From Bacillota bacterium (GTDB taxonomy: Bacteria; Bacillota; SHA-98; UBA4971), in the NCBI GenBank assembly GCA_050949175.1, contig JBMNFG010000011.1:195749-259748 (forward strand): a DNA stretch of 64,000 nt, read 5' to 3'. The position numbers and the translations under genes are program-made. This document shows, piece by piece, positions 4,592 through 60,262 of this stretch (position 1 is the stretch's first letter; each line of letters starts with the position of its first letter). The notes under the pieces are model-generated. The model did not search any database. It saw only the letters and a program-made list of their open reading frames with translations, and was not told where the DNA came from.

Positions 4592-4787
4592 ACGGAATTC
4601 CTCCTATGAATAATCAAGTCTGCTACTTTGATAATTATTATGAAGATTTTAGTGTGGCTTGTTGGTAACAAAATGCTTGTTCTCAGATTTAGATTCCCCG
4701 CCGGGCATGGATCTCCTTCTCGAATTTGTGCGGCAAGATTCAAAATCCATCTACACCATTCGACAAGCTATTCTCATGTATGACAGC

Positions 4788-5075
4788 GGATCTTGCCGCG
4801 CCTTGTATAGCGAACCTTGCTGCGCCTCGCAGAGCGAACCTTGGTGTTTCTTGTACGCGAATCTTACTGTCTCTTGTATAGCGGGCCCTGCTATCTCTTG
4901 TACGCAGATCTTACTGCGCCTCGCCCAGTGAACCTTTCTGTCGCCTGTATAGCGAGCCTTGCTGTTTCCTGTATAGCGAGCCTTGCTGTTTCCTGTATAG
5001 CGAACCTTTCTGTCTCTTGTACGGCGGACCTTGCTGTGTCTTGTACAGCGAACCGTACTGTCTCTTGCACAGCGG
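4788..5075. repeat. tandem array A: about 12 degenerate units of about 24 bp (consensus CTTGCTGTNTCTTGTATAGCGAAC)
   Basis: Direct reading of the sequence. Lies between the MATE stop codon and the nrdJ start codon. ORF-track ORFs here (4751-5179, 4817-5152, 4891-5142) are repeat artefacts. Confidence 0.9.
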
Positions 5076-6488: not shown

Positions 6489-6650
6489 AGTTTCTTCATC
6501 TCCTAAGTTGGACGCATCCCCTACTTTAACAAAAACCTTCATCTGCCGCAAGATACAGAGTCCGGTCTTCGTGTCCCTGTCATACTGCTTTGCCATTGCG
6601 ACACCGCAGGACGACGCCCCATTTATTATCGTCGATCTTTTCGGTGTTCG

Positions 6651-6980
6651 CTAGTAGGGTACCGCAGCCTCACCACAGTCCAGTGTCCGCCACTAGGGTA
6701 CCACAGTCCACAGCCCGGTCTCCTCTAGTAGGGTACCAGAACCGGTGTCATCTAGTAGAGTACCACAGCCCTGTGTCCGCCAGCAGGGTACCACAGTCCA
6801 CAGCCCGGTCTCCTCTAGTAGGGTACGTGAGCTCGTTGTCCTCTAGTAGAGCACCATAGTTCGGTGTCCTGTAGTAGAGTACCACAGCCCAGTGCCCTCT
6901 AGTAGAGTACCACAGCCCAGTGTCCTGTAGTAGGGTACCAGAGCCCAGTGTCCTGTAGTAGGCTATCACAGCCCGATAGC
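6651..6980. repeat. tandem array B: about 10 units of about 30 bp (CTAGTAGRGTACCACAGYCCAGTGTCCTG)
   Basis: Direct reading. Lies immediately upstream of the MATE start codon. Confidence 0.9.
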
Positions 6981-7064
6981 TACAAAAAGCGGCAGAAATC
7001 TAACTACATTTCCTCATCCAACCACACTTCCTTACATCGCCGGCCGGATTTGGGCCACCTCTTG

Positions 7065-7560
7065 AGATTTTTTCGGGCACATGCTCATAAGTGGTCTGTT
7101 TTCAACCACCTTTCCTCAAAGAGGTGCTTCAATTTCGACCACACTTTCCGATTTTTTCGAGCAAATGTTCATAAATGGGAGATTTTGAACCACCAAAACC
7201 GGCTCAGGTGGTAGAGATTCGACCACATTTTCAGGTTGTAGGCGGGTTTTGGGAGCTTTTTCGGGCTTAGGTGGTAGATTCTCTACCACATTTTCTAAGA
7301 ACGTGGCAGTTTTTCGCCCACCTTTTCAGAAAATGTGGGCGAGTTTCGACCACCAAACCGTGATTTGTAAGATTATGGGAGGCGCGGTGGTCGATATTCT
7401 ACCACCTTAACGCCTGATCATGGTAGAAAACCTTCCACCTTTAGGCCTCCTGGTGGGCGAAACTCTACCATTTTAGAGCTTACGCTCAAAACTGTGGTCG
7501 AAAAGCTGCCACCAAAAGGCGTTAAGGTGGTTGGTTTTCGACCACTCCAGCCCGTATGCC
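7065..7560 (-). repeat. dispersed hairpin-array element, copy 1 (inverted relative to copies 2 and 3)
   Basis: The reverse complement of 7300-7380 matches 38180-38260 almost base for base. The element is built of 20-nt hairpin cores GGTGGTMGA-N4-TCKACCACC. Confidence 0.88.
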
Positions 7561-8058
7561 TAGGCATTGGTGTATCGACGCATGCCTCGACGCCAGTATA
7601 TTGACAAATGCCCAGGCGCCAGTATATTAACGGATGCCTATGTGCCAGCGTATTGAGGTATACCTAGGCGTTAGTATATTAACGCGTGCCTAGGCGTTGG
7701 AGTGTTGACGAATGCATAGGCATTGGTGAATAGACGCATGTCTAATCGTCAGTGTATTGACGCAGGCATAGGCGTTAGTGTGTTCACGCATTGCTAGGCG
7801 ATAGCGATCGACTCAGGCCTAGTATGCCTAGGCATTGACATGTTGATGCGTGCCTAGGCGATACTGTATTGACGCATGCGGAGCATACCTAAGCGCTAGT
7901 GTATTGGCGCATTCCTAGGCCATACTTCATTGACGCAGACCTAGCATGCGTAGACGCTAACGTATCGACACGTGCCTAGGCGCCGGTGTATCGACACATG
8001 CATAGTCACTGGTGTATTGACGCATGCATAGGCTTTGGTGTATTGACGCATGCCTAGG
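7553..8058. repeat. tandem array C: about 17 units of about 30 bp (GCATGCCTAGGCGTTAGTGTATTGACGCAT)
   Basis: Direct reading. Abuts copy 1 of the dispersed element and the 3' end of the A2M-like gene. Confidence 0.9.
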
Positions 8059-21472: not shown

Positions 21473-23458
21473 CTATGCTCCACCTGGGCTTTCCGCAAGC
21501 TTCGGCGGACTCGGCGAAACCCTGGCTTTACCCGGGCTAAGCTGCTCTTCTTGGCCTGCCTCTTCGTCTGCGGCGACTGCAGCTGCAACATGGTCCGCTA
21601 CTCTCTCAGTATCAGTATCTTCAGCAGCTACGCTGACTTCATCTGAGAGCACCTCGTCGATTTCAGCGCCTTCCAGAGTCTCTTTTTCTTTCAGGGCATT
21701 GGCCAGTCTTATCAGCTTATCCCTATTGTCTATCAAGAGTGTTCTTGCACGTTCGTAGGATTCGTCCACTATCCTCCGGACCTCACGGTCAATCAGAGCG
21801 GCCACCTCTTCGCTGTAGTCTCTGTCATGGCCTAAGTCGCGTCCGAGGAAGACAGTTTCCTCGCGACGGCTTCCCAGGGACAGAGGGCCTAGTTCTTCAC
21901 TCATGCCATACTGGGTAATCATCCTACGAACCAGCTTCGTAACCTTGTTCAGGTCGTTCTCAGCACCTGTCGATATCTCGTCAAATGTTATTTCCTCAGC
22001 AACCCGTCCGGCAAGGGTTACGACTACGTTGTCAAGGATTTCAGACTTAGTCCTGAAGAACCTGTCCTCCTCCGGAAGCATCAGCGTGTACCCGCCCATT
22101 CTCCCTCGAGGGATTATCGATACCTTCTGGACAGGATCCACATTCGGCAGGAGTTTCGCGGCTAAAGCGTGCCCTGCCTCGTGGAATGCCACTAAGTCTT
22201 TCTCCCTCTCAGTCATGACTCTGCTCTTTTTCTGAGGCCCTGCTATAACCCTGTCGATAGCCTCGTCGCAGTCCTGCATCGAGATCTTTCTTCTTCCGCG
22301 CCTTGCTGCCAGAATTGCAGCCTCGTTAAGGACGTTTTCCAAGTCAGCGCCGGTAAATCCGGGAGTCCTCTGGGCTATTACCCTGAGATCTACGTCTGCT
22401 GCCAGAGGCTTATTCCTTGCATGGACCTTCAGGATCGCCTCTCTGCCATTAAGGTCCGGCATATCCACTACTATTTGCCGGTCGAAACGCCCCGGCCTAA
22501 GCAGTGCCGGGTCAAGCACGTCAGGCCTGTTCGTTGCGGCAAGAAGTATTATGCCTGTGTTTGACTCGAACCCGTCCATCTCGACTAGGAGCTGGTTCAA
22601 GGTCTGCTCTCTCTCGTCGTGTCCTCCGCCAAGGCCTGCCCCACGCTGCCTTCCGACAGCATCTATCTCGTCAATGAACACAATGCACGGGGCATGCTTT
22701 TTGGCTTGATCGAAGAGGTCTCGCACCCTGGAAGCGCCGACACCGACAAACATCTCTACGAAGTCTGAACCGCTTATGATAAAGAACGGGACACCTGCCT
22801 CGCCGGCAACAGCACGTCCGAGAAGGGTCTTACCTGTTCCCGGAGGCCCTACCAAAAGGACTCCCTTGGGTATCTTAGCTCCTAGCTCCACAAACTTCCG
22901 GGGATGTTTGAGGAATTCCACGATCTCAGCAAGCTCTTCCTTGGCTTCGTCAACACCTGCTACATCAGCAAACGTGGTTTTCCCGCGTTCTTCCATGTGC
23001 AGCCTGGCCCTGCTCTTTCCAAAGGAAAGGGCTCTGTTGCCTCCGCCTTGCATCTGATTAAGAAGGAAGAACCACAGCCCAATGAAGAACAACATGGAAA
23101 GAGCCTGTGGCAATATCGTATACCACCACGGCGCCGCCGGTTTCGGTTCGGCTAAGACCTCAATTCCTGCAAGCGTACCTTCACTATCTTTCAGCTTGTC
23201 GGTGACGAGGGATATATCCGGCACATAGGTTTCAAATTCTTGACCGTTGGCCAAACGTCCCTGGACTTTGTCGTCACCGATTATGCGGAGCATCTCAATA
23301 TTGCCCGAATCAAGGTTTTCCATAAACGTGCTCAGGCTGATCTCTTGCGGCGTCGCTTTCTGACCGTAAAAAGTGCTGGCAATTGACACGGTCATCAGGC
23401 CAAGCAAAATCCATAGCCCAAGCGTTCTTAATATGTTGTTCAACTGATCTCCTCCCAT
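21473..23458 (-). CDS. ftsH: ATP-dependent zinc metalloprotease FtsH
   Basis: 661 aa. Walker A GPPGTGKT, second region of homology, and the HEAGHA zinc site. Confidence 0.95.
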
Positions 23459-23587: not shown

Positions 23588-25123
23588 TCAATCACAACTT
23601 AGATACCTGCGCCTAGCTCTAAGGTGGAGGACCTTTTCGGTAGTAGGTGAAAGCTTAGCAAAATCGCTTACGCATACCCCAACTACCCATAGAATCTCTG
23701 TTCCCCATATAATAACGGGAATACGGTCTCGTACGTTCCTGGGTATTTTCTTGTCTATGAAAACATCCTTGAGTTTCTTGTGGCCCTTCATGCCGAGAGG
23801 AGATAACCTATCTCCGGGACGCCTATTTCTTACTGTGATGTGCCCGGTGATCACGCCAAGGTCAAAGTAGGCTTCATTGTGATCAGTCAAAGATATCGTA
23901 TCCAGTAGGCCCGGCTTATCTTCAATATTAAATATGTCAGCTTCTATAGTAATACCGGCTTCCACAATCTCAGTATCACCGGGAACTCGGAGTACATACT
24001 CAAAAGGATGGCTATCTTCAGATAGGGCTGATTCAAAGCCTTCCTCTTCCGCCCACTCTAAGATAATTCGATCATATTCGCGCCTAGCCTGGAGATTGCC
24101 TGGCAGCGAGATGCGGGATCCGGTCTTGCCGCTTCGTGCAAGCTCCAGCACTTTCTCAACGTGTATAGACTCGAAGTCTTCAAGGTCCCCTGCGAGTTCA
24201 TATACTGCCTGTCTGATAATCCGCCTCTGAATCGCTATGTGCTGCCGGCTCAGAGCAGGTATATTGATGATTACCTCGTGCGGCAGGATAACTTCTGTGA
24301 TCTGTCCCATCATCTCGCAGACTCTACCCGAAATATAATCGTCATCATCCTGCACAAGCTCTGCAGTGGTGCTTAGTGTGTGGATCACTCTCGGGTTATA
24401 GTCCTGCTCAAGATGGGGAATGAGCTCGTGCCTGATCTTGTTCCTGAGATAGACAGGGCTCACATTCGATGCGTCTATATAGTATACAAGCTGCGCTTCG
24501 TGACAATACGAGCGAATCTCAACAGGGGTTGCGTTGATCAGGGGACGGATGACTGTGATCCCGCTGGCCGGATCAAGCGGCCTCAGCGGAGGAATTCCGC
24601 CCAGCCCTCTCAGTCCCGTCCCGCGGATAAGCCTGAGAAGAACAGTCTCGGCCTGATCTCCAGCGTGATGCCCTAATGCCACCTTGGAGGCGCCTTCATC
24701 AAGGGCAATGTGACGGTAAAAGCCGTAGCGCACATTGCGGGCTGCAAGTTCTATGGACAGTTTCTCGTTTTTGGCGTACTCATTTACGTCCACTGCTTCG
24801 ACTGTGCAGGGGAGCCCTAATCTCGCAGCAAGGCCTTGAACATATTCGGCTTCCTCATCAGCGGCCTCGCCTCGAAGCATGTGGTTGAGGTGGGCTACGT
24901 GAAGCGAGATGTCGAGTTTGTCCTTTAGCACATACAACGCATGCAAAAGGGCGATAGAATCAGGCCCTCCGGAGACGCCTGCCACGACTTTATCTCCCGG
25001 AGCCAGCATGTCATATCGCCTAATGGTTGCAAGCACATTACCGATGAACCGGTTGTCTTTTGCATTCATGCGCAAATCACACTCATCAAAAACAAGGATT
25101 CGGCGGCCGCCAAAGGATTTCAC
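23588..25123 (-). CDS. tilS: tRNA(Ile)-lysidine synthetase
   Basis: PP-loop VVAGVSGGPDS, followed by substrate-binding and C-terminal domains. GTG start at 25123; the internal ATG at 25069 is the alternative. Confidence 0.85.
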   Translation of the reverse strand: MKSFGGRRILVFDECDLRMNAKDNRFIGNVLATIRRYDMLAPGDKVVAGVSGGPDSIALLHALYVLKDKLDISLHVAHLNHMLRGEAADEEAEYVQGLAARLGLPCTVEAVDVNEYAKNEKLSIELAARNVRYGFYRHIALDEGASKVALGHHAGDQAETVLLRLIRGTGLRGLGGIPPLRPLDPASGITVIRPLINATPVEIRSYCHEAQLVYYIDASNVSPVYLRNKIRHELIPHLEQDYNPRVIHTLSTTAELVQDDDDYISGRVCEMMGQITEVILPHEVIINIPALSRQHIAIQRRIIRQAVYELAGDLEDFESIHVEKVLELARSGKTGSRISLPGNLQARREYDRIILEWAEEEGFESALSEDSHPFEYVLRVPGDTEIVEAGITIEADIFNIEDKPGLLDTISLTDHNEAYFDLGVITGHITVRNRRPGDRLSPLGMKGHKKLKDVFIDKKIPRNVRDRIPVIIWGTEILWVVGVCVSDFAKLSPTTEKVLHLRARRRYLSCD

Positions 25124-25169
25124 TACTTGGGTCCCTACCAGTCCTCGTCATAACACTCTACCTGCAATG

Positions 25170-25535
25170 CAGCCAGGAAAACCTTCGCGTCTAGTGTATC
25201 ATGGAAGAATTCCCCGTCTTGTATATCCTGGAAAAGCTTCGCGCCCAGTCTATCCTGGAAACACTCAGCGTCTTGTATAGCCTAGAAATTCTTCGCGCGT
25301 TGTATAGCCTGGAAAAACCTCGCGTCCTGTGTATCCAGGAAGCCTGGAAAAACCTCGCGCCCTGTGTATCCAGGAGAGGCTTCGCGTGCAATACGTGCCG
25401 GAAAGACTTCGTGTCTGCTTTAACCTTGACGGACCTCGCGTCTTGTATATACCCCAAACACCTCACTGCCAGTGTATCCTGGATAGACTCTGCGTCTAGT
25501 ATATCCTGGAAAGACTTCACCTGTAGTATAGCACA
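25170..25535. repeat. tandem array D: about 12 units of about 30 bp (CTTCGCGTCTTGTATAKCCTGGAAAAG)
   Basis: Direct reading. Lies immediately upstream of tilS. It shares the decamer CTTGTATAGC with array A. Confidence 0.88.
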
Positions 25536-25559
25536 AGTAAGCATACAAACGCTTCCATC

Positions 25560-26570
25560 TTTCCCTAAGCGCGAGCGCGTTGAACCGGCGGATTGGCTCA
25601 TCAGGAGAACCGACCAAAAGATTCAGGAAGCTTCTCGCATTTAACATGGCTCATGTCGTGCGCCAATGAACGCCATTTTGTGACGTACCAGCGCCGGAAT
25701 GGCTCCTCGACAAAGCCATTCAAGAGGATTCAGACTCCTTTTAGCCGCCGATTGGCTCATCGTGTGCGCCATTTAAGCTCATCTAAGACTCTTCGTGCGC
25801 ATGGATGGCTCTCACACAGAGCCATCCATGCACATTTACGGTCCTTTGAAGTCCTTTTGAGGCCAGAACGGATCATCAGTTAAGCCATTCAGAGCTGTCT
25901 TCAAGCTTTTTTGTCTTAGATCGGCTCGCGTGGTGAGCCATTCCGATCGATTTGAGAGTTTGTCAGCAGTTGATCGGCTCATCACGTGAGCCAACATGCG
26001 CATTTAAGTTCCTTTTGATGCCCTGTTGCGGCCAAAACGGTTCACAGGGTGAGCCATTCACAGCGACCCTAGCGCTTTTTGCTCCTAGATCGGCTCACGT
26101 GGTGAGCCATTCCGATCGCTTTGAGAGTTTGTTAGCAGTTGATCGGCTCATCACGTGAGCCAACATGCGCATTTAAGTTCCTTTTGATGCCCTGTTGCGG
26201 CCAAAACGGTTCACGAGGTGAGCCAATCATGCCGACCTGAGGAGTTGTTGCCCGCGGATTGGCTCGCACCGTAAGCCATTCTCACCGGTTTAGTCGCTTT
26301 CAGGTAGTAGATCGGCTCGTGATTGGCTCGCTTTATGAGCCAACCCGAGCCGTCTAACGGTTTCTCAGCAAACACATGGTTCTTCGGAAGAGCCATCTGG
26401 GTCTACTTGAGACTCTTGCTGCTATCGAACGGCTCACTCCATAAGCCGCTCGGGTCCGCTTCAGGCTTTTCGGGCTGCTAAATGGCTCTCGCCATGAACC
26501 GACCAGAAGGATTTGCCTATGTGCGTATGCTTGTGCAGTCGATCAGCTCGCGGGATCAGACAATTTGCCC
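25560..26570. repeat. array E: about 1 kb of about 50-bp units built on the palindrome (AT)GGCTCA-N3-5-TGAGCC(AT), with a near-identical 160-bp higher-order duplication at 25941-26100 and 26101-26260
   Basis: Direct reading. Includes a perfect 14-bp inverted repeat GCATGGATGGCTCT-cacac-AGAGCCATCCATGC. Confidence 0.9.
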
Positions 26571-26629
26571 AGTTTAAGGGTTCTTTATATGCTGATCTTT
26601 ATATACCCGCCCGGACCATGATGGTTTAC

Positions 26630-29122
26630 CTAAATCAATAGGCCAATACTTCGCCTCGGATACAACGTATCGTCTGCAGAAGACTCGTTCTGCGGGTTCT
26701 GTCTGCGAGACTTCCTTTTGTAAACTCGCACTACAAGAACGGTCATATCGTCAGAAGCACGCCCCCCGGAATACTGTAACGCACGGTTAAGGATAAGCTG
26801 GGCTATTTCGTCAGGACGCTCTGTTGTGACAGTGGAAATCAGCCTCTCAACCCAGTCATCAGGTGCATGCACAGGGGCAGCTGAACCGTAAAGTCCTGCT
26901 GTAGAGTTTAAAACCCCATCGCTGACCATGACCACAAGGTCACCTGCAGACAGCTTCTGCCGGGTCTTTCGGATTTCTATCGCGTCAAATATTCCTGCAG
27001 GAAGAGATGGGGATTCGATTGTCTTTACGACTCTACCCCGTTTGACAAAACTCGGAGGTGAACCTACCTTTATGAACTGTATCTCTCCTGTGACCATGTC
27101 CATAGTGGCCACATCCAAAGTGGCAAATGATTCTCCGGGTGACCTCAACAGAAGAATAAGGTTTGCGGTCTTCACTGCAAACTCCTGGTCAAAGCCTGCC
27201 TCAAAGAGCCTTTCCAGCATACTTACTGCTGTAGAACTCTCTATTGCGGCCCCTTTTCCTGTTCCCATACCGTCACTGACAATGAAGACTCCTCGCCCGT
27301 CTGCAAGTTCCAGCACTGAATGGGCATCTCCGGATATGTCAGTTCCGAACTTTGCCGTTACCGCAACTCCGCTCTCAATGCCATAGATCCTTGCTTGAGA
27401 AAACATGATCTCGCACGTAGGTTGCCCTGCTCTGTTTCCGCACCTTACCTTGGAAACCTCAAGCTCCCTGTTGAGAAGCCGGGAAATCAGCGGACCCACC
27501 GCGTTCCTACACTCCCTCTCTCCACAGCACGCTGCCTTTTTTACAGTGACATCAAGCCTCCCCCTTCTGCTGGCGACGACACTGACCTCTGTAATTCCCA
27601 GCCCGAGACGGGAAAGTTCTCGCATGATCCTCTGTTCTGCACTGGTCTCCAGCTCAACGCAGGCCCAGACATCTTCACCCAGGTTGTGGAGGATTTTAGC
27701 TATCCCTTGCAATTGCCCGGAAAACATGTATCGCCCTTCCGCAAGCCTCCTGGCATAAGCCAGATTGTGTCTGTGGGAACCGGTGGAACTGTTCACTGCG
27801 GCCACGAGTCCGGGAACATTAAGACACCTCCAGCTGAGCTGGTCCTTGACTTCACTAACCTCTACCCGGGACTTTAATTCAGCCAGCGCAACCAGGTTCA
27901 GCACATCTCGGAAAGTCCTGTGGAAAGCATCGCCCCAGCAGAAAAGATAAGCCCTGCACTTGCTGCATACAGATGAGGAAATCTCATGTAACATGTGGGC
28001 GATATCTGCTCGTTCCGCCAACTCCGGATCGTACGGGATCTGTCTTAGCATCGATGAAAGTTCACCGAATACCTTTGAGAAATCCACCAGCTTCTGCGAG
28101 AGAAGCTCCTGGACTCTCCTGGCATGCGCCTCCCCGCCCCCTCCAGGTCTCCTCTGCAAAATCGGCAACAACTTAGCCACTCTTTGTAGACCTCTTCTCG
28201 GAACAAGCAGGAACAACAAACCTGACGCACCCAGCTCCGCGGTAAAAAGCAACACATTCCTCCTGCCAGATACCTGAAACACAAGGAGTCCCGCCCCCAG
28301 CGTAAACCCTATGGAAGATGCAATCTTCCCATAACTACGCATACTGCCCGCCAAAAGTCCGCCTAGAGCGTATGCGCCAACTATAGGAGGCAGCCCCTGC
28401 CCTGACACAGCGCACGCGAACCCGGTTAAAGCCCCCGCTGCAGCTCCAAAAGGTGCTCCTCCTGAGTAGGCTATGACAGTAGTCGCAACACCGGCAGCTA
28501 CCGGGCCTAACGAAACACCCTTGATCTCTACACCTGCCAACCCCATGGTGATTCCTGCGCAAAGCAATCCGAATGAGGCTGCCTGCTCAGGCCCAAGAGC
28601 TCCCCAGTGGGGTAAGGCAGAGAATCCCCTTCCAACTCCGCCCCAGCTGAAAATAGCAGCAGCAAGCCCACCTATGGCAGCTTCCAATCCTACTATCGCC
28701 ACGGAAGGCCGGGATACACCGACGATGTATTGGAGGAATTGAGGCACGATAAAACCGAATATCATTATACTTACAGGCAACAGAAGAGGTCTTGCCTCTA
28801 CTCGACGGGAAAACAACCGTGCAAAGAGCACAACAAGGACCAAAGGAGCACCTGTCCATATCGTGTCAGAACCCAGTGTCAGTCCGTTCATTCCTAAGAA
28901 GACGCCAAACATTGTGAGCGGGGCGATAGGGCCTCGACACGCTGCCAGCACTCCGAGGTAGGCTATGCCAAAGGGAGCACCTGCACCGAAAATATGTGCT
29001 CGCCCTAGAAGAGTCCCGATTAAAGCGCAAAACACAGCTGCCGGTGAGAGTGCATGGATCCAGAAATCCCGGATGCGACCGGCTCTCATCGGTGCAACTC
29101 GCTTCCTATCCTTCCTATCCAT
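26630..29122 (-). CDS. spoIIE: stage II sporulation protein E (PP2C phosphatase with multi-TM N-domain)
   Basis: About 10 TM helices followed by a C-terminal PP2C domain (GVFIVSDGMGTGKGAA...DDMTVLVVRV). Start chosen at 29122, which has a GAGG RBS. The ORF-track N-terminal extension to 29416 is basic and Gly-rich and is probably not translated. Confidence 0.85.
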   Translation of the reverse strand: MDRKDRKRVAPMRAGRIRDFWIHALSPAAVFCALIGTLLGRAHIFGAGAPFGIAYLGVLAACRGPIAPLTMFGVFLGMNGLTLGSDTIWTGAPLVLVVLFARLFSRRVEARPLLLPVSIMIFGFIVPQFLQYIVGVSRPSVAIVGLEAAIGGLAAAIFSWGGVGRGFSALPHWGALGPEQAASFGLLCAGITMGLAGVEIKGVSLGPVAAGVATTVIAYSGGAPFGAAAGALTGFACAVSGQGLPPIVGAYALGGLLAGSMRSYGKIASSIGFTLGAGLLVFQVSGRRNVLLFTAELGASGLLFLLVPRRGLQRVAKLLPILQRRPGGGGEAHARRVQELLSQKLVDFSKVFGELSSMLRQIPYDPELAERADIAHMLHEISSSVCSKCRAYLFCWGDAFHRTFRDVLNLVALAELKSRVEVSEVKDQLSWRCLNVPGLVAAVNSSTGSHRHNLAYARRLAEGRYMFSGQLQGIAKILHNLGEDVWACVELETSAEQRIMRELSRLGLGITEVSVVASRRGRLDVTVKKAACCGERECRNAVGPLISRLLNRELEVSKVRCGNRAGQPTCEIMFSQARIYGIESGVAVTAKFGTDISGDAHSVLELADGRGVFIVSDGMGTGKGAAIESSTAVSMLERLFEAGFDQEFAVKTANLILLLRSPGESFATLDVATMDMVTGEIQFIKVGSPPSFVKRGRVVKTIESPSLPAGIFDAIEIRKTRQKLSAGDLVVMVSDGVLNSTAGLYGSAAPVHAPDDWVERLISTVTTERPDEIAQLILNRALQYSGGRASDDMTVLVVRVYKRKSRRQNPQNESSADDTLYPRRSIGLLI

Positions 29123-29704
29123 TGAGCCTCTATCAACTCTGCCTTTTTTAGAAGTCCTCCTATCGAGTCCATTTCCGTCAAATCCATCAGTCTCAGATCG
29201 ATAAGCTCCGGGTGTACTTCGGCCGGTCTTACTTTTACCACGCCTATTACCTGCACCTATTGATGATACCCGTACCCTTTTACCCTGGCCCAGAGAAACA
29301 CCATATCCGGAACAACGAGAGGTTCTGTGCTTAGCCTCTCTACCCATCCCCGGCTCCCCCTTTTCTTGCCCGCAGTGGGTTGTCCCACAGTTGACTGACT
29401 GTTGCGATACTACCACAGGGGGTTGGGAGGAACCTGACGGAAATTGTACTCATCGCCACAAAATCTTGCGGCATGCCTTTCTCGAAATCTCCAAAAGTCA
29501 GCCCCGCATTCAAAGAGTACCCATGAACATCGTCTTGCTTCTTAATCCTTTGCTAGCTGGTTTTCAGTGGTTTTGTTCGGAGGATCAGCCGAGCAGAAAT
29601 CACAGGTTAAGGAGGAATGCGGCATGTTGGCAACTCGGTAGGGGATGATGACACATCAGTAAGGCATTTGACTATTCTCGCCACATAAAAACCTCGTCCC
29701 CGGT

Positions 29705-34094: not shown

Positions 34095-34335
34095 AGGTTT
34101 CAGAATGCCCTAAACGGCGTCGGTCTCTCTACAGGGCACCGGTCTTTCCATACAGGGCATAGATTTTTCCCTACACCGCGTAGATATCTCCCTACAAGGC
34201 ATCGGCCTTTCATTACAAGGCATCGGCATCTCCTGAAAATGCATCGGTCCCTCCTTACACAGCATTGGTCTATCCGTACAAAGCATCGGTATCTCCCTAC
34301 AGAGCATCGGTCTCTCCTCACACAGCGCCGGCCTC
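34095..34335. repeat. tandem array F: about 11 units of 22 bp (GGCATCGGTCTCTCCCTACAGA)
   Basis: Direct reading. Lies in the divergent promoter gap between the hlyD-like and YIP1-family genes. Confidence 0.88.
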
Positions 34336-37266: not shown

Positions 37267-37269
37267 ACG

Positions 37270-37975
37270 GTCTCTCCCTCCTTAAGTCACGGGCCTTGCA
37301 TCTGTTTAAGTCGCGGACCTTACCCAAGGTTAAGGTAAGGTCCTTACCTATGTTTAAGTCACAGGCCTTACCCATGTTTCCTATGCTATATACCAGACTG
37401 CCGTCTCCTTTGTTTCCTCAGTTGTTTCCCCAGCTATATACCAGGCCGCCGTCTCCTTATGACGGGCTACGATCCCCTCTACACAGCTCTGACTGCCATC
37501 TCCTCATGACGAGCTATGATTCCGCCGCCATAACTATATACTAGACTGCCGTCTCCTTGCCGTCTCCTTATGATGGGCTACGATCCCGCCTCCACGACTC
37601 TGGGCCATAGTTGTGCTTTTCACGTTTGGGCTTTCCATAGTCGTGCCCTTTTGTATTTTTTCTGCAAATTGCTCGCAAGTCCTCCCCTCACTGCTGTGGT
37701 AGGAAACCCTTCATCGGTAAGCTTTTGCTGCTACATTCGCAATTCTCTCCCACCCTGACAGATTCAGGCATTGCCAATAATCTAGTTCAAAGCTTGTCCG
37801 GCTCAAAGTTTGCCCAGTTCACAGCCTGTTTAGTTCAAAGGCCGTTTAGTTCAAAGCCTGTCCCTTTTAAAGCGTTTCCTTTTTAAAGCTTGTCTGTTAC
37901 AAAGCTTATCCATTTCAAAGACTGTCCATCTCAAAGACTGTCCGTTTCAAAGATTGTCCATTTCAAAGATTACGC
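37270..37975. repeat. compound repeat block upstream of ade: GTTTAAGTCRCGGRCCTTRC x4, CTATATACCAGRCYGCCGTCTCCTT x3, then a 20-bp array GTCCATTTCAAAGACTGTCC x about 10
   Basis: Direct reading. Confidence 0.85.
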
Positions 37976-38011
37976 ACGATGGAATTCCTGACATTGTTGC
38001 GGAACGGCGAA

Positions 38012-38495
38012 GCCCCGGTGGTCGAAAACCGCCCACCGTTTGGCTGTTTGATGGCAGTTTTTCTACCACGGTTTTGAGCGTAAGCTCTAAAATGGTAGAG
38101 TTTCGCCCACCAGGAGGCTCAAAGGTGGAAGGTTTTCTACCATGATCAGGCGTTGAGGTGGTAGGATATCGACCACCACGACTCCCATAATCTGACAAAT
38201 CACGGTTTGGTGGTCGAAACTCGCCCACATTTTCTGAAAAAGTGGGCGAAAAACTGCCACCTTTTCCAAAAAAGTGGTAGAGAATCTACCACCTGAGCCT
38301 TAAAAAGCTCCCAAAACCGGGCTCCAACCTGAAAATGTGGTCGATTCTCTACCACCTGAGGCAGTTTTGGTGGTTCAAAATCGTCCATTAATGAGCATTT
38401 GCTCGAAAAAACCGGAAAGTGTGGTCGAGATTGAACCACCTCTTGAAGGAAAGCTGGTTGAAAATCTACCATTTATGAGCATTTGCTCAAACAAA
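38012..38495 (+). repeat. dispersed hairpin-array element, copy 2
   Basis: About 12 cores such as GGTGGTAGAGAATCTACCACC (9-bp perfect stem). About 85-90% identical to copy 3 and to the reverse complement of copy 1. Confidence 0.88.
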
Positions 38496-38689
38496 TCCAA
38501 AAGGATAGTCCAAACTGAACTACTGTTCCTAAGAAACATGGCAGAAACTCGCCTACCCCTACCGACAGTATCGACGGCCGTGGCACCATCGACGGTAATG
38601 AGGAATAATTCTGATCAGAAGAGATCCTGATTAGAAAAACCCTGATCAAGGAGGGTTCGGATCAGGGAAAAGCCCAGCGTGCTCACGTA

Positions 38690-38790
38690 CGGAACAAGCA
38701 TCTATGGGACAACCCCCTATGCGACAACAATCCATGAGACAACAATCCATGAGGCAACAACCTAGGGGACAACAACCTAGGGGACAACAA
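38690..38790. repeat. short array CAACAATCCATGAGR / CAACAACCTAGGGGA x about 6
   Basis: Direct reading. Abuts the 3' end of the dehydrogenase gene. Confidence 0.8.
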
Positions 38791-39778
38791 CGTTTTGCGG
38801 ATTTCCTTCGATGAATCTCAGGATGTTTTCGCAGGTGGTGTCAAGAATGCGCAAGGTAGCCTCGCGGCTGTTGAAGGCATTGTGCGGGGTTATTACCACG
38901 TCTTCCCTGCGTAGAAGCATTTGGTTTTGTACAAATGTCTTCAGGACGTTTTTTGAATAGTCCTTATTCAGAACATAACCCTCTTCCAGCATAAGCTCCT
39001 CACCCTCCAGCACGTCAAGGCCTGCGCCTCCGAGGATCCCTTGGTCCAAAGCCCATACCAGCGCTTCTGTCTCGACTAATCCTCCCCTTGCCGTGTTTAT
39101 CAAGATTGCGCCTTTCTTGACTTTCTTAAGGCTCTCCTTATTAATCAGATGATGAGTCTTCTTGTTGTATGGCACATGCAGCGAGATTACGTCTGACGAG
39201 CCCAGCAGCTCTTCAAATGGGACGTAGCGGTAGCCTAAGACTTCTGCCAAAAAGACATCTTTCTTTGTATCATAGGCTAGGACCTCCATGCCAAAGCCTT
39301 TGGCAATTCTGATTACGTGCATACCGATTTTTCCGCACCCTATGACACCGAGAGTCTTGCGTTTAAGGTCAAACCCTTGCAAATCCTCGAGGGAAAAGTC
39401 TTGACGGATAGTCCTACAGTAAGCCTTATGGACATTTCGCGAAAGCGCCAGTATAAGGGCAAATGTATGTTCAGCGACAGTGTTTTCGCCGTAAAACGGC
39501 ACATTCACCACATGTATCTTGTTCTTCTTACAAAACTCAATATCTATATGGTCGAAACCTGTGGATCTCGTCGCTATCAGCTTGAGTTCAGGGAACTTCC
39601 GAAGAGTATCCGAAGTCAGATGAGAGTAAATGAATACTGAAATGCCCCATGAATCGGTAAGACCGTCAAGGTCGGTCTCCTGCACTGTCTCATGGGAAAA
39701 TGCAGTCTCAACATCGCGAAGACGCGTGCGGTACCTATCCTTTTCCCACTTCCCTACCTCAAAGAAAGCGATTTTCAT
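38777..39778 (-). CDS. D-isomer-specific 2-hydroxyacid dehydrogenase, NAD-binding
   Basis: GVIGCGKIGMHV Rossmann motif and the catalytic R/E/H arrangement. Start MKIAFF at 39778; the ORF is open to 39817. Confidence 0.85.
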   Translation of the reverse strand: MKIAFFEVGKWEKDRYRTRLRDVETAFSHETVQETDLDGLTDSWGISVFIYSHLTSDTLRKFPELKLIATRSTGFDHIDIEFCKKNKIHVVNVPFYGENTVAEHTFALILALSRNVHKAYCRTIRQDFSLEDLQGFDLKRKTLGVIGCGKIGMHVIRIAKGFGMEVLAYDTKKDVFLAEVLGYRYVPFEELLGSSDVISLHVPYNKKTHHLINKESLKKVKKGAILINTARGGLVETEALVWALDQGILGGAGLDVLEGEELMLEEGYVLNKDYSKNVLKTFVQNQMLLRREDVVITPHNAFNSREATLRILDTTCENILRFIEGNPQNVVVP

Positions 39779-53639: not shown

Positions 53640-54860
53640 TTGACGAGTACCGTAGTTGAGCTCACCGGGCATATTATTGATTCGAGGAGCCTTCCTAAGG
53701 TGCTGGACGTCATTATCGAGCGAGGCGGCGACTTCGACATCGAAGAACTCAAAGTAGGTAGGAAGAACAATGACCCTAGCTATGCCAGGATAATGATTGA
53801 AGCAGAAAGTCAGGAAGCCCTGGACATGATACTTGAAGAAATAAGACGTTTGGGTGCTGTTGAAATGCATCTGGATGAGGCAGAGGTAGAACCGGCACCG
53901 AAAGACGGAGTATTTCCGGACAACTTCTATTCCAGCACTAACCTGGAGACATTTTTGAAGATTCGTGGTTCATGGATCCCTGTAGATGACATTGAGATGG
54001 ATTGCGGCATTGTCGTTGATTTCTCAGGGGACCCCCCCACAGCTCGCTGCGTGCCTCTGGGCAACATAAAGAAAGGCGACATGGTAGTTGTCGGAGGAAA
54101 AGGAATCAAAGTGATTCCCCTTGAGAAATCCAGGAAACGAGAGGTATTCAGTTTCATGGGGAGTGAAGTGTCCAGTGAGCGCCCTAAGGCCTTGGCTTTA
54201 GCAAGCATCGCTGAGACAATGAAAGACATCAGGTCCCGCAATAAGAAGATCCTTGCAGTTGTAGGGCCTGCAGTTATCCATACAGGCGCAGGCAGGCATC
54301 TTTCCGCGCTTATTGACGCAGGCTATATCAATGTACTGTTCGGCGGAAATGCCGTAGCAACCCATGACGTGGAATGGGCCTTGCTGGGAACCTCCCTCGG
54401 CGTTTATCTGGACACAGGGATTGCAGCTCCTGCAGGGCATACCCACCATATTAAGGCGATTAACACAATCCGAAAGTACGGAAGCTTTGAAAAAGCTGTA
54501 GAAGCAGGCGTGCTTACTAAGGGGATCATGTATTCATGTGTCAAGAACGGAATAGACTACGTCCTTGCAGGATCAATACGAGACGATGGGCCGATGCCGG
54601 GTGTCATCACTGATTCGGCAGAAGCTCAAGATGCAATGCGCCGTTGCCTGAAAGATGTGGAGTTAGCGCTGATGCTGTCTACAATGCTGCACTCCATAGC
54701 CACAGGCAATCTGCTGCCGGGAAAGGTCAAGACGGTGTGTGTCGATATAAACCCTGCTACCGTTACAAAGCTGGTAGACCGCGGCAGCCACCAGGCTGTG
54801 GGGGTAGTAAGTGACGTAGAGCTGTTCTTGAAAGAACTGGCGTATCAACTTATAGGGTAG
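53640..54860 (+). CDS. LOR/SDH-conserved-region (TIGR00300) family protein, archaeal-type ornithine-cyclodeaminase-like
   Basis: 406 aa. The N-terminus MTSTVVELTGHIIDSRSLPKVLDVI and the overall length fit the family. Assigned from memory of the family, not from a search. Confidence 0.5.
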   Translation: MTSTVVELTGHIIDSRSLPKVLDVIIERGGDFDIEELKVGRKNNDPSYARIMIEAESQEALDMILEEIRRLGAVEMHLDEAEVEPAPKDGVFPDNFYSSTNLETFLKIRGSWIPVDDIEMDCGIVVDFSGDPPTARCVPLGNIKKGDMVVVGGKGIKVIPLEKSRKREVFSFMGSEVSSERPKALALASIAETMKDIRSRNKKILAVVGPAVIHTGAGRHLSALIDAGYINVLFGGNAVATHDVEWALLGTSLGVYLDTGIAAPAGHTHHIKAINTIRKYGSFEKAVEAGVLTKGIMYSCVKNGIDYVLAGSIRDDGPMPGVITDSAEAQDAMRRCLKDVELALMLSTMLHSIATGNLLPGKVKTVCVDINPATVTKLVDRGSHQAVGVVSDVELFLKELAYQLIG

Positions 54861-54990
54861 CTGCTTATAGGATAGTTGATTATCGCATAGTTGCGGATAG
54901 TTGCCTATCGGATAGTTGCTTATCGGATAGTTGCTTATCGGATAGCTACTTATGGGATAATTGCTTAATAGGATCGCTGCTTGTAGGGTA
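54856..54990. repeat. array O: 13-bp unit GGATAGTTGCTTATC x about 10
   Basis: Direct reading. Starts at the stop codon of the preceding gene. Confidence 0.85.
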
Positions 54991-57551: not shown

Positions 57552-57720
57552 TAGCTCGCGCCCGTCACTAATGCTGGTTAGGATCTCTTTTGAGTCCGGC
57601 TTCAGGCAGGCAGGTACGATATCCTCGTTGCGGTACATGACAAGACCGGCGTGGAAGCTGAGCACCTCTACTGGCAGGCAGATCCCAGCTGATAGCTAGC
57701 GTTCGTCAAACGCGATGTTA
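57552..57720 (+). repeat. degenerate tandem duplication of the last about 130 bp of the preceding gene (57420-57551), including its stop region
   Basis: Direct comparison. GATAGCTCGCGCCCGTCAC...GGCTTCAGGC...GGTACGA...GACAAG.CCGGCGTGG.AGCTGAG...CTCTACTGG occurs twice. Confidence 0.85.
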
Positions 57721-59191: not shown

Positions 59192-59675
59192 CTGGGGTGG
59201 TCGAAAAACAACCACCGAAACGCTCTTTAGTGGCAGCTTTTCTACCACAGTTTTGGGCGCTTGCTCGTAAATGGTAGATTCTCGCCCACCAGAACGCTCA
59301 AAGGTGGAAGGTTTTCTACCATGATCAGGTGCTAGGGTGGTAGGATATCGACCACCACGCCTCCCATAATCTGGTAATTTGCGGTTTAGTGGTCGAAACT
59401 CACCCACATTTTCTGAAAAAGTGGGCGAAAAACTGCCACGTTTTTAAAAAAAGTGGTAGAGAATCTACCACCTAAGCCCCAAAAAGCTCCGAAAACCGGG
59501 CCGCAACCTGAAAACGTGGTCGAATCTCTACCACCTGAGCCGGTTTGGGTGGTTCAGAATCGCCCATTTATGAACGTTTGCTCGAAAAAATCCAAAAGTG
59601 TGGTCGACATTGAACCACCTCTTCAAGGAAAGGTGGTTGAAACCGAACCATTTATGAGCGTTTGCTCGTAAAAAC
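59192..59675 (+). repeat. dispersed hairpin-array element, copy 3
   Basis: Collinear with copy 2 along the whole length (for example GTGGTAGAGAATCTACCACCTAAGCC, GTGGTCGAATCTCTACCACC). Confidence 0.88.
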
Positions 59676-60169: not shown

Positions 60170-60262
60170 AAAGCTGCCGCAAGAAGAGCCTCAGAGCACT
60201 CAAAGCGCTCAAAGCACTGAGAGCATTCGGAGCACTCAGAGCACTCGGAGCACTCTTGGATC
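60170..60262. repeat. array T: 9-bp unit AGCACTCAG/AGCGCTCAA x about 9
   Basis: Direct reading, about 50 bp upstream of the GTG start of the next gene. Confidence 0.85.

What the first reader, a model, noticed from the sequence alone, without database searches (positions are those of the whole stretch)
25560..26570. 1-kb palindrome array between spoIIE and tilS with a recent 160-bp higher-order duplication
Units of about 50 bp are built on ATGGCTCA-N3-5-TGAGCCAT. Several extend to long perfect inverted repeats, for example GCATGGATGGCTCT-cacac-AGAGCCATCCATGC (14-bp arms). The blocks 25941-26100 and 26101-26260 are about 97% identical, while other units are only about 70% identical, so the array is still growing by unequal exchange. 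Its position replaces the yabS/yabT/hprT interval found between spoIIE and tilS in Bacillus. A transcript through the array would fold into a long chain of hairpins.
Basis: seen in the sequence. Interest (0 to 1): 0.55.

Follow-up and report, generated by a model that had tools for sequence, protein, structure and literature searches.

The report
Dispersed 53-bp hairpin minisatellite array
The 1-kb stretch between spoIIE and tilS is a real, strain-variable tandem array of 53-bp hairpin-forming units. It belongs to an apparently undescribed family of such arrays scattered through intergenic DNA of uncultured biogas-reactor bacteria, and it looks more like selfish or structural repeat DNA than a gene or a known RNA.

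Summary
Window 25587-26591 contains 18 head-to-tail units of 53 bp (a few are 63 bp). Each unit carries an imperfect palindrome, GAwyGGCTCAc-N3-gTGAGCCAwTC, and a conserved spacer. The higher-order period is 169 bp (53+53+63), not 160 bp.

Independent assemblies of the same species carry either a 1506-bp or a 1337-bp spoIIE-tilS spacer. The two differ by exactly one 169-bp block with no mismatches, so the array does gain or lose higher-order units.

Six related species have spoIIE and tilS 77-500 bp apart and lack the array. It is therefore a lineage-specific insertion between the spoIIE stop codon and the tilS promoter. It does not replace yabS/yabT/hprT.

The new result is that the unit is not unique. 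At least 15 other arrays with the same 53-bp period and the same two conserved blocks occur in digester metagenome contigs. They sit next to unrelated housekeeping genes, in either orientation, and one is absent from a sister species.

There is no strand bias, no significant covariation within the window's array, no Rfam, plasmid or phage match, and no cas, par or transposase gene nearby.

Best reading: a new family of interspersed palindromic minisatellites, resembling REP/BIME and MIRU but a member of neither. A phased protein-binding array is not excluded.

The parts
26630..29416 (-). spoIIE. Its stop codon lies about 40 nt from the last array unit.
   Evidence: Pfam SpoIIE_N 2.2e-74 and SpoIIE 1e-32.
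25587..26591 (.). Array A, the finding. It has 18 direct units of 53 bp; units 5, 8, 11 and 13 are 63-64 bp and unit 17 is 60 bp. Each unit is an imperfect palindrome GAwyGGCTCAc-N3-gTGAGCCAwTC followed by the spacer motif ATTTnAGnnCTTTT. 'Forward' orientation of the family consensus is the + strand, which is antisense to the flanking genes.
   Evidence: The core is 92% conserved, the loop 37% and the spacer 56%.
25799..25831 (.). The one long perfect palindrome: 14-bp arms with a 5-nt centre.
   Evidence: (I8). Predicted free energy is -22 to -24 kcal/mol on either strand.
25918..26086 (.). Higher-order repeat copy 1 (units 7-9, 53+63+53 bp).
   Evidence: 89% identical to copy 2 at lag 169.
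26087..26255 (.). Higher-order repeat copy 2 (units 10-12). One 169-bp copy is absent from the commoner 1337-bp allele.
   Evidence: The deletion frame can lie anywhere in 25965-26214 with zero mismatches.
25525..25535 (-). Inferred tilS promoter: an extended -10 element, TGTGCTATACT. It lies between array A and array B.
   Evidence: It matches TGTGCTATAAT / TATGCTATAAT, which sits directly after the spoIIE stop in relatives L001-L003, L005 and L006. The consensus promoter scan did not call it, so this is an inference.
25136..25532 (-). Array B: about 14 degenerate 27-bp units (- strand: GnCTTTCCAGGATAyACaaGACGCGAa) in the presumed tilS 5' leader. It is unrelated in sequence to array A.
   Evidence: lag 27 identity 0.54. 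Shorter repeats at the same position occur in L001-L003.
23588..25123 (-). tilS, followed by ftsH at 21473-23458.
   Evidence: Pfam ATP_bind_3, TilS and TilS_C.

Best explanation
Array A is a locus-specific expansion of a 53-bp palindromic unit. The unit belongs to a dispersed family of intergenic tandem arrays, which I call an interspersed hairpin minisatellite. The family is found in uncultured anaerobic-digester Bacillota.

**Proposed history**
1. A founder unit was seeded between the spoIIE stop codon and the tilS promoter in this species only. This step is inferred and its mechanism is unknown.
2. The unit was amplified in register by unequal recombination or replication slippage. That process is still active at the level of a 169-bp three-unit block. 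This step is shown by strain alleles.
3. Units then diverged by point mutation, while the GGCTC/GAGCC core and the period were retained. This step is shown.

**How it acts**
It acts at the DNA level and carries no locus-specific conserved function. Its local consequence is to put about 1 kb of hairpin-forming DNA between a sporulation gene and the promoter of the essential tilS-ftsH genes. That DNA may behave like an E. coli REP/BIME, blocking read-through and protecting the upstream 3' end. This last point is inferred and untested.
For: **The array and its period**
-.

**Strain polymorphism**
- Same-species assemblies differ by exactly one 169-bp block with zero mismatches.
- Two junction types exist, and the breakpoint lies within an 81-bp identity tract.

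**Absence from relatives**
- Six related species (SpoIIE 60-83% identical) lack the array. Their spacers are 77-500 bp and the promoter directly follows the spoIIE stop.

**Family membership**
- At least 15 other arrays of 3-23 units exist in metagenome contigs.
- Core spacing is 53 bp in 74 of 98 intervals; the rest are 63/64 bp or multiples.
- All share the consensus nnGnnGAnTGGCTC(A/T)..(T/A)GAGCCAnTCAGnnnGATyTGAgGGcTT.
- Each array has its own stem variant, which indicates local amplification from a founder.

**Context of the other arrays**
- Flanking genes are unrelated housekeeping genes, with no conserved neighbour.
- Orientation relative to flanking genes is mixed.
- 9 of 11 arrays lie within about 40-540 nt of a gene's 3' end.
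- A second array (L117/L147) is absent from the orthologous site in a sister species with 80% identical SpoIID.

**No RNA signature**
- Family-wide, G-U and A-C mismatches number 102 and 93.
- There is no covariation within the array and no Rfam family.

**Genome background**
- The same genome is full of other strain-variable tandem arrays.
Against: - The GGCTC/GAGCC core is far better conserved (92%) than loops (37%) or spacers (56%) within the array. A second block, GAT.TGA.GGCTT, is conserved between arrays. Purely neutral satellite DNA should decay evenly. Some constraint must therefore exist, either host function or a requirement of the propagation mechanism.
- The strict 53-bp period, with variants differing by about 10 bp, also suggests a structural constraint.
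- No transposase or other mobilising enzyme was seen.
- Dispersal within this particular genome is not shown: there is one array in about 74 kb.
- All assemblies are short-read. Three have scaffold gaps and two contigs end inside the array, so true copy numbers may be higher.
Confidence: 0.6

Rival explanations
1. The array is a phased protein-binding platform. Each unit would be a binding site for a dimeric sequence-specific DNA-binding protein (half-site GAwTGGCTC), plus an accessory motif (GATyTGAgGGCTT). Sites repeat every 53 bp, about 5.0 helical turns, so all sites face one side of the helix. This resembles the sopC centromere of plasmid F or an iteron array. Such arrays scattered over the chromosome would organise the nucleoid, load a partition or condensin-like factor, or set domain barriers.
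For: - The core half-sites are conserved far above loops and spacers.
- Two conserved blocks are shared across arrays from different hosts.
- The period is invariant at 53 bp, and the only common variant is +10 bp, which is one helical turn.
- There is no strand preference and orientation is mixed. Both fit double-stranded recognition.
- In the long arrays the AA/TT signal peaks at the 10.6-bp harmonic, 0.21-0.30 of power against 0.04 expected.
- Pairing is explained by a conserved palindromic consensus rather than by covariation.
Against: - No candidate protein was found. No par, sop or DNA-binding gene lies next to any array.
- Arrays are absent from orthologous sites in sister species and vary in copy number within the species. 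Any site-specific role is therefore dispensable.
- Stem variants differ between arrays (GATTGGCTCAC vs GAGTGGCTCTC), which a single binding specificity would tolerate poorly.
- The 10.6-bp AA/TT signal is absent from the shorter, GC-richer arrays.
- There is no similarity to plasmids.
Confidence: 0.22
2. The array acts as RNA. Read-through from spoIIE, or a dedicated transcript, would produce a chain of hairpins. These would stabilise the spoIIE 3' end, attenuate transcription into tilS as REP325 does in E. coli, or sequester an RNA-binding protein.
For: - Every unit can form a hairpin of -5 to -24 kcal/mol.
- The whole array folds with z = -8.2 on the gene-sense strand.
- The array starts about 40 nt after the spoIIE stop, and no intrinsic terminator separates them.
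- Most family arrays lie just downstream of a coding region.
- In the window alone, mismatches favour the gene-sense strand: 24 A-C vs 10 G-U on the + strand.
- REP arrays in E. coli act as partial terminators and mRNA stabilisers (bioRxiv 10.64898/2026.03.23.713779).
Against: - Family-wide there is no strand bias in wobble pairs (102 vs 93).
- Orientation relative to flanking genes is mixed, with at least 4 sense and 7 antisense.
- Covariation is not above shuffles within the array and only marginal family-wide.
- Stem sequence is conserved, rather than pairing alone.
- No U-tract follows the hairpins on either strand.
- There is no Rfam match beyond chance miRNA-like hairpins.
- No expression data are available.
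Confidence: 0.12
3. The array, or at least the 169-bp duplication, is an assembly artefact. Short-read assemblers would have expanded or collapsed repeats.
For: Three same-species assemblies carry 100-N scaffold gaps inside the higher-order region, and two contigs end in the array. All available assemblies appear to be short-read.
Against: - The diverged units (60-75% identity) cannot be produced by mis-assembly.
- The window allele is reproduced base for base in an independent MAG (L010). The 1506-bp length recurs in a 2015 data set (L025).
- The 1337-bp allele recurs in at least 11 assemblies from different projects and assemblers.
- The longest exact repeat is 81 bp, shorter than the k = 127-141 in the contig names.
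Confidence: 0.04
4. The array is a degenerate orphan CRISPR array, with a roughly 25-bp palindromic repeat and a roughly 28-bp spacer.
For: Regularly spaced short palindromes recur with a constant period.
Against: - The 'repeats' are only 60-75% identical.
- The 'spacers' are homologous to one another within and between arrays (ATTTnAG..CTTTT / GATyTGAgGGCTT).
- No cas gene occurs in the window or next to any family array.
Confidence: 0.01

Closest known systems
REP / BIME elements of Proteobacteria (repetitive extragenic palindromes arranged in mosaic arrays)
   Same: - The unit contains a palindrome of about 25 nt.
- The arrays are extragenic and mostly lie just downstream of a coding region, between co-directional genes.
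- They are regularly spaced, species-specific in location and variable between strains.
- Hairpins at a 3' UTR could act as read-through barriers or stabilisers, as shown for REP325.
   Different: - Units are all in direct orientation, not alternating.
- There is no GTAG or CGTC tag next to the palindrome (consensus).
- The 53-bp period is strict and the spacer is conserved.
- No RAYT was seen.
- Copy number per genome is unknown.
- The hosts are uncultured Bacillota, not Proteobacteria.
MIRU-VNTR loci of Mycobacterium tuberculosis (own knowledge; 53-bp MIRU repeats are mentioned in papers listed)
   Same: - Direct tandem repeats of about 50 bp sit in intergenic spacers of housekeeping gene clusters.
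- The family is dispersed over many loci.
- Copy number varies between strains.
   Different: - MIRUs are co-oriented with flanking genes and carry small ORFs that overlap the neighbouring stop and start codons.
- Here orientation is mixed and the unit is not a multiple of 3.
- There is no sequence similarity, and the phylum is different.
sopC centromere of plasmid F (12 direct 43-bp repeats, each with a 7-bp inverted repeat bound by SopB; own knowledge)
   Same: - Both are direct tandem repeats, each carrying a short inverted repeat.
- In both the period is close to an integral number of helical turns.
   Different: - This array is chromosomal and present at many loci.
- No adjacent partition genes were found.
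- There is no plasmid match.
- Protein binding has not been shown.
BOX and STAR elements of streptococci and staphylococci (own knowledge)
   Same: These are Gram-positive intergenic repeats with a tandemly iterated internal module, and they vary between strains.
   Different: They have a different modular structure (boxA-boxB(n)-boxC, or a GC-rich 14-mer with about 40-bp spacers). There is no sequence similarity and no strict 53-bp palindromic unit.

Membership tests
REP/BIME | Imperfect palindrome of 20-40 bp (PMC3733652). | tested here: met
   The palindrome GAwTGGCTCAc-N3-gTGAGCCAwTC is about 25 nt. 75-80% of stem cells are paired.
REP/BIME | Unpaired GTAG or CGTC tag at one end of the palindrome (PMC3733652). 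| tested here: not met
   The family consensus TGGCCGATTGGCTCA...TGAGCCAATCAGG has neither tag.
REP/BIME | [quoted passage not shown] | tested here: not met
   All units in an array share one spacer orientation. Strand-specific HMM scores are consistent along each array.
REP/BIME | High copy number, more than 100 per genome (PMC2817692). | not testable with these tools
   Only about 74 kb of this genome is held, with one array of 18 units. Family arrays occur on several contigs of single metagenomes, but their hosts are unassigned.
REP/BIME | A cognate RAYT (Y1 transposase) flanked by REPs (PMC2817692). | not testable with these tools
   No transposase occurs among the window ORFs or the neighbours of family arrays. 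The rest of the genomes was not available.
REP/BIME | Extragenic location, predominantly downstream of coding regions between unidirectional or convergent ORFs (PMC3733652). | tested here: met
   In the window the array lies about 40 nt after the spoIIE stop, between co-directional genes. 9 of 11 family arrays lie near a gene's 3' end.
MIRU-type interspersed minisatellite | Direct tandem repeats of 40-100 bp at several intergenic loci, with copy number varying between strains (own knowledge). | tested here: met
   The units are 53 bp. At least 15 arrays occur at unrelated loci. Same-species alleles differ by 169 bp.
MIRU-type interspersed minisatellite | Same orientation as flanking genes, with small ORFs overlapping the neighbouring stop and start codons (own knowledge). 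| tested here: not met
   Orientation is mixed. 53 is not a multiple of 3, and no ORF spans the array.
CRISPR array | Near-identical repeats separated by unrelated spacers, usually with cas genes. | tested here: not met
   Units are 60-75% identical and the spacers are mutually homologous. There are no cas genes.
Plasmid-type centromere (sopC/parC-like) | A tandem repeat array next to its partition operon, bound by the centromere-binding protein. | tested here: not met
   No parA, parB or sop genes occur near any array. There is no plasmid similarity. Protein binding itself is not testable here.
Any Rfam RNA family | A match at or above the gathering score. | tested here: not met
   There were 0 hits in the window at gathering threshold. 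At E<=5 only sub-threshold miRNA-like hairpin hits appeared.

The most novel reading that the evidence does not exclude
The 53-bp arrays would be a new class of chromosomal, helically phased protein-binding platforms. Each would be a string of up to about 20 identical-face binding sites (palindrome plus accessory motif) for an unidentified dimeric DNA-binding protein. They would be scattered through intergenic DNA of an uncultured Bacillota clade. They would act as nucleoid-organising or centromere-like elements that expand and contract like satellites.
Probability: 0.15. Interest if true: 0.75.

Novelty: new variant of a known kind. Interest (0 to 1): 0.5.

Why it matters
Interspersed palindromic repeats such as REP/BIME, MIRU and BOX have been useful strain-typing markers. 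In E. coli they are real regulators of 3' UTR read-through and mRNA stability. Almost all knowledge of them comes from Proteobacteria and a few pathogens.

This locus exposes a family with an unusually rigid architecture in uncultured spore-forming anaerobes that are abundant in biogas reactors. The architecture is an exact 53-bp period, two conserved sequence blocks and direct orientation.

The family offers three things:
- a ready VNTR marker for tracking strains of a widespread digester organism;
- a clean case of higher-order repeat turnover in a bacterium, with both alleles and the recombination tract in hand;
- a testable question about what maintains an invariant core and period in arrays that are otherwise gained and lost between sister species.

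It also serves as a warning for annotation. Gene callers place spurious ORFs in these arrays, and short-read assemblers break or gap there.

Tried and rejected
- **Replication origin or RacA/ParB-type centromere near oriC.** No dnaA or dnaN is in the window. The strand switch near 49.5 kb is flanked by addB and a radical-SAM gene. The units are not parS; only some loops contain CACGTG.
- **Coding potential.** No ORF spans array A, and 53 is not a multiple of 3. The 136-aa ORF over array B translates to low-complexity repeats, and the equivalent 117-aa ORF that gene callers place there in other assemblies has no Pfam family on record.
- **Intrinsic terminators or sigma-70 promoters inside the array.** None was found.
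- **A second small hairpin (TCAG...yTGA) in the unit.** Only 59% of cells are paired and there is no covariation.
- **RNAalifold on 100 units.** It returned no consensus structure.
- **A conserved gene next to family arrays.** None was found.
- **Conserved array termini or target duplications.** There are no shared flanks apart from identical loci assembled several times.
- **Homology of array A to array B, to the 500-bp GGTGG element, or to anything else in the window.** None was found.
- **Plasmid, phage and viral-contig searches.** No family member was found.
- **Intermediate relatives to date the insertion.** TilS homologues jump from at least 99.4% to 76% identity, so none is available.
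- **Linking the family arrays to the window's species.** I tried SpoIID look-ups and MAG accessions. The result was inconclusive because no accessions were shared.
- **Walking out of the window.** The left flank (10 kb) has no array. The right-end protein is not on record.
- **Literature searches.** Nothing describes this family. Searches for '53-bp repeat' returned only MIRU and eukaryotic hits.
Full report
**What is at the coordinates**

The window encodes spoIIE (26630-29416), tilS (23588-25123), ftsH (21473-23458) and hutU, all on the minus strand (Pfam). The spoIIE-tilS spacer is 1506 bp (25124-26629) and has no convincing ORF. It holds two unrelated tandem arrays.

It runs from 25587 to 26591 and consists of 18 direct units. 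Thirteen units are 53 bp. Units 5, 8 and 11 are 63 bp, unit 13 is 64 bp and unit 17 is 60 bp. The extra bases come from short internal duplications.

Each unit has two parts:
- an imperfect palindrome, consensus GAwyGGCTCAc-N3-gTGAGCCAwTC;
- a spacer with the conserved pattern ATTTnAGnnCTTTT.

Array B (25136-25532) is a degenerate 27-bp repeat immediately upstream of the tilS start codon.

**Is it more than chance?**

Yes.
- Self-identity is 0.445 at lag 53 and 0.49 at lag 169. TRF scores the array at 593.
- The core GGCTC-N7-GAGCC occurs six times in 64 kb, all inside the array, against 0.51 expected from shuffles.
- The 991-nt array folds with z = -8.2 on the minus strand and -6.8 on the plus strand, relative to dinucleotide shuffles.

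**Corrections to the observation**

The higher-order period is 169 bp (53+53+63), not 160 bp. At lag 169, 25918-26086 against 26087-26255 is 89% identical. Identity rises to 96-100% over about 25935-26035, and there is an 81-bp perfect run. Only one unit has long perfect arms.

**Position relative to genes**

On the gene strand, TGTGCTATACT sits at 25535-25525. In five related genomes the motif TGTGCTATAAT or TATGCTATAAT directly follows the spoIIE stop codon and precedes tilS. I therefore place the tilS promoter between the two arrays.

On this reading, array A lies upstream of the promoter, in the spoIIE 3' region. Array B lies in the tilS 5' leader. This is an inference from homology. The simple sigma-70 scan did not call the site.

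**Comparison with relatives**

Six related uncultured Bacillota genomes have the same spoIIE-tilS-ftsH-hutU order, with SpoIIE 60-83% and TilS 51-75% identical. Their spoIIE-tilS spacers are only about 77-500 bp and contain no unit of array A. Adjacency of spoIIE and tilS is therefore ancestral in this clade. The array is an insertion of about 1.07 kb in one species. It does not take the place of yabS, yabT or hprT.

No closer relatives exist in the protein collection. TilS homologues drop from at least 99.4% to 76% identity.

**Polymorphism within the species**

The exact TilS protein is listed in 373 blocks of the assembly collection. The accompanying records are 'Bacillota bacterium' MAGs, and several contigs come from biogas-fermenter metagenomes. 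I compared nineteen same-species loci.

| Spacer state | Where it was seen |
|---|---|
| 1506 bp | the window and L010 (identical); L025 (16 differences clustered at 26006-26081) |
| 1337 bp | at least 11 assemblies, in two sequence types that differ at two positions |
| 1336 bp | one assembly |
| unresolved | three assemblies with 100-N scaffold gaps in the higher-order region; two contigs ending inside the array |

Removing any 169-bp frame within 25965-26214 from the window allele reproduces the short allele with zero mismatches.

The longest exact repeat is 81 bp. That is shorter than the k = 127-141 encoded in the contig names, so both alleles are probably real. The duplicated state in the window is the minority allele.

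**The unit is a family**

I scanned metagenome contigs for two cores 28-42 bp apart. Many hits had exactly the window's spacing.

Closer analysis found at least 15 independent arrays of 3-23 units on contigs of 0.48-0.55 GC: L029/L054/L117/L140, L030, L042, L050/L051/L096/L122, L062, L078, L094, L104/L139, L106, L111, L113, L121, L127 and others.
- Over 15 arrays, core-to-core spacing is 53 bp in 74 of 98 intervals, 63/64 bp in 7 and 106/107 bp in 12.
- In a common orientation all arrays share nnGnnGAnTGGCTC(A/T)nnnn(T/A)GAGCCAnTCAGnnnGATyTGAgGGcTT.
- That consensus has two conserved blocks: the palindrome and GAT.TGA.GGCTT.
- Each array has its own stem variant, for example GATTGGCTCAC/GTGAGCCAATC or GAGTGGCTCTC/GAGAGCCACTC. 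This indicates local amplification from a founder unit.

**Context of family arrays**

- Neighbouring genes are unrelated housekeeping genes: SpoIID, ABC transporters, DUF3084, an SLH porin, formiminotransferase, an aminotransferase, ARMT1-like, MFS, PNP, DUF362/AOR, HSP20, HflX-Dus and PurH.
- No gene recurs next to the arrays.
- Orientation relative to flanking genes is mixed, with at least four sense and seven antisense. The window is antisense.
- Nine of eleven arrays lie 40-540 nt from a gene's 3' end.
- The array next to spoIID (L117/L147) is missing from the orthologous site of a sister species with 80% identical SpoIID. That is the same pattern as in the window.
- No family member was found in viral contigs, plasmids or phages.
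- I could not establish whether these arrays belong to the window's species or to others.
- Within the window plus 10 kb of left flank there is only this one array.

**DNA or RNA?**

Unit hairpins are about equally stable on both strands, summing to -173 kcal/mol on the plus strand and -189 on the minus strand.

Within the window's array, pairing (75%) is no higher than in column shuffles (73%, 62/500). The palindrome is therefore a conserved consensus and not a covarying helix.

Over 100 units from all arrays there is a modest excess of double changes: 78 against 62 cells (3/500), with a covariation score of 0.211 against 0.181 (0/500). The excess is concentrated at pairs 8-28 and 15-21. Relatedness of the units can produce an excess of this size.

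G-U and A-C mismatches are balanced (102 against 93, p = 0.57), so neither strand is preferred. In the window alone, however, A-C outnumbers G-U 24 to 10 on the plus strand.

No Rfam family matches, and no U-tract follows the hairpins. Together with the mixed orientation, this argues against a strand-specific RNA function as the family's reason for existing. A local REP-like effect on spoIIE read-through is still possible. REP325 in E. coli acts as a partial terminator and an mRNA stabiliser.

**Constraint**

Within the window's array, the GGCTC/GAGCC core is 92% conserved, the outer and inner stem 65%, the spacer 56% and the loop 37%. The loop is saturated while the core is nearly invariant, and the period is fixed. 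Something therefore constrains the unit. The candidates are a host function such as protein binding, or a requirement of whatever propagates and amplifies the units.

In the long arrays, AA/TT dinucleotides are phased at the fifth harmonic (10.6 bp). That harmonic holds 0.21-0.30 of the power against about 0.04 expected. The signal is absent from the shorter arrays. The common length variant is +10 bp. These features keep the phased protein-binding reading alive, but no binding protein is in sight.

**Genome background**

The window has many other degenerate tandem arrays in intergenic DNA, with periods of 9-28 bp. It has three spacers of about 1.5 kb. It also has a 500-bp dispersed element in three copies.

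The related MAG loci show far fewer arrays, though short-read MAGs may under-represent them. At least one other array (24-bp units, 4802-5074) also differs by one unit between strains. This species evidently tolerates or generates tandem arrays at a high rate.

**Comparison with known systems**

*REP/BIME.* The family shares with REP/BIME the short palindrome, the extragenic 3'-proximal location, the regular spacing and the strain and species variability. It fails three defining features: the GTAG/CGTC tag, alternating orientation and, so far, RAYT association.

*MIRU-VNTR.* It resembles MIRU-VNTR loci in unit size, dispersal and copy-number variation. It lacks their co-orientation and overlapping ORFs.

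*CRISPR.* It is not CRISPR, because the spacers are homologous to one another and there are no cas genes.

*Plasmid centromeres.* It is not a plasmid-type centromere by context.

I found no description of this family in the literature library. I file it as a new variant of the known kind 'interspersed palindromic repeats or bacterial minisatellites'.

**Verdict**

The finding is real and better than chance. Its register, its supposed gene replacement and its RNA interpretation needed correction.

The most likely nature is a locally amplified member of a dispersed 53-bp hairpin minisatellite family acting at the DNA level (confidence about 0.6). A phased protein-binding array (about 0.2) and a REP-like RNA role (about 0.1) are the live rivals.

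Noticed in passing
window 25136-25532 (- strand): A second array of about 14 degenerate 27-bp units (GnCTTTCCAGGATAyACaaGACGCGAa) fills the presumed tilS 5' leader, between the inferred promoter and the GTG start. Shorter repeats at the same position occur in three related species (L001-L003) but not in L004-L006. This array is therefore older than array A. Gene callers place a spurious 117-aa ORF on it.
   Followed up: partly
window 7049-7545, 38018-38514, 59192-59674: A dispersed non-coding element of about 500 bp is present in three copies at 86-88% identity. One copy is inverted relative to the other two. The element is built from about 13 hairpin units of the type GGTGGtaGAaaatCgaCCACC. 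It sits in three of the five largest intergenic gaps. Fragments of similar units occur in L002 (600-930 and 12790-12850) and L001 (1175-1275). There was no Rfam hit at gathering threshold.
   Followed up: partly
window 4785-5074, 6642-6975, 7556-8058, 34120-34326, 37282-37379, 37786-37968, 38702-38791, 54849-54987: Many other degenerate tandem arrays lie in or at the edges of intergenic DNA. Their periods are 24, 28, 26/52, 21, 24, 16, 15 and 15 bp, and each has its own unit sequence. The 26/52-bp array (units around CCTAGGCATGCGTCAATAC) lies directly after the a2m stop codon, much as array A lies after spoIIE. Orthologous regions of six related MAGs show far fewer arrays.
   Followed up: partly
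window 4802-5074; L148 vs L149: The nrdJ-matE spacer is 526 bp in the window and in L149 but 502 bp in L148. The difference is one 24-bp unit, so other arrays in this species are also copy-number variable between strains.
   Followed up: partly
window 6597-8053, 25124-26629, 37267-38776: Three intergenic spacers between co-directional genes have nearly the same length (1457, 1506 and 1510 bp). Each is filled with several repeat types. No explanation was found for the similar sizes.
   Followed up: no
L002 12700-12990: A related species carries a different insertion of about 300 bp at the same point, between the spoIIE stop and the tilS promoter. It includes a GGTGG...CCACC-type hairpin. This site may be a preferred landing place for repeat elements.
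   Followed up: no
L017 1685-4401; L008, L010, L011 and L020 around 2035-2207: In some same-species assemblies spoIIE is called as two ORFs (272 + 638 aa in L017). In others it is called with a shorter start (819 aa against 905-928 aa). This could reflect a frameshift, a pseudogene, an assembly error or differing start-codon calls at the N-terminus.
   Followed up: no
window 57430-57708 and 60185-60255: A 141-bp direct duplication (85% identical) overlaps the 3' end of the unannotated 597-aa ORF. A 9/18/27-bp repeat lies inside the start of the ECF-transporter S-component ORF. These are repeats that reach into coding sequence.
   Followed up: no
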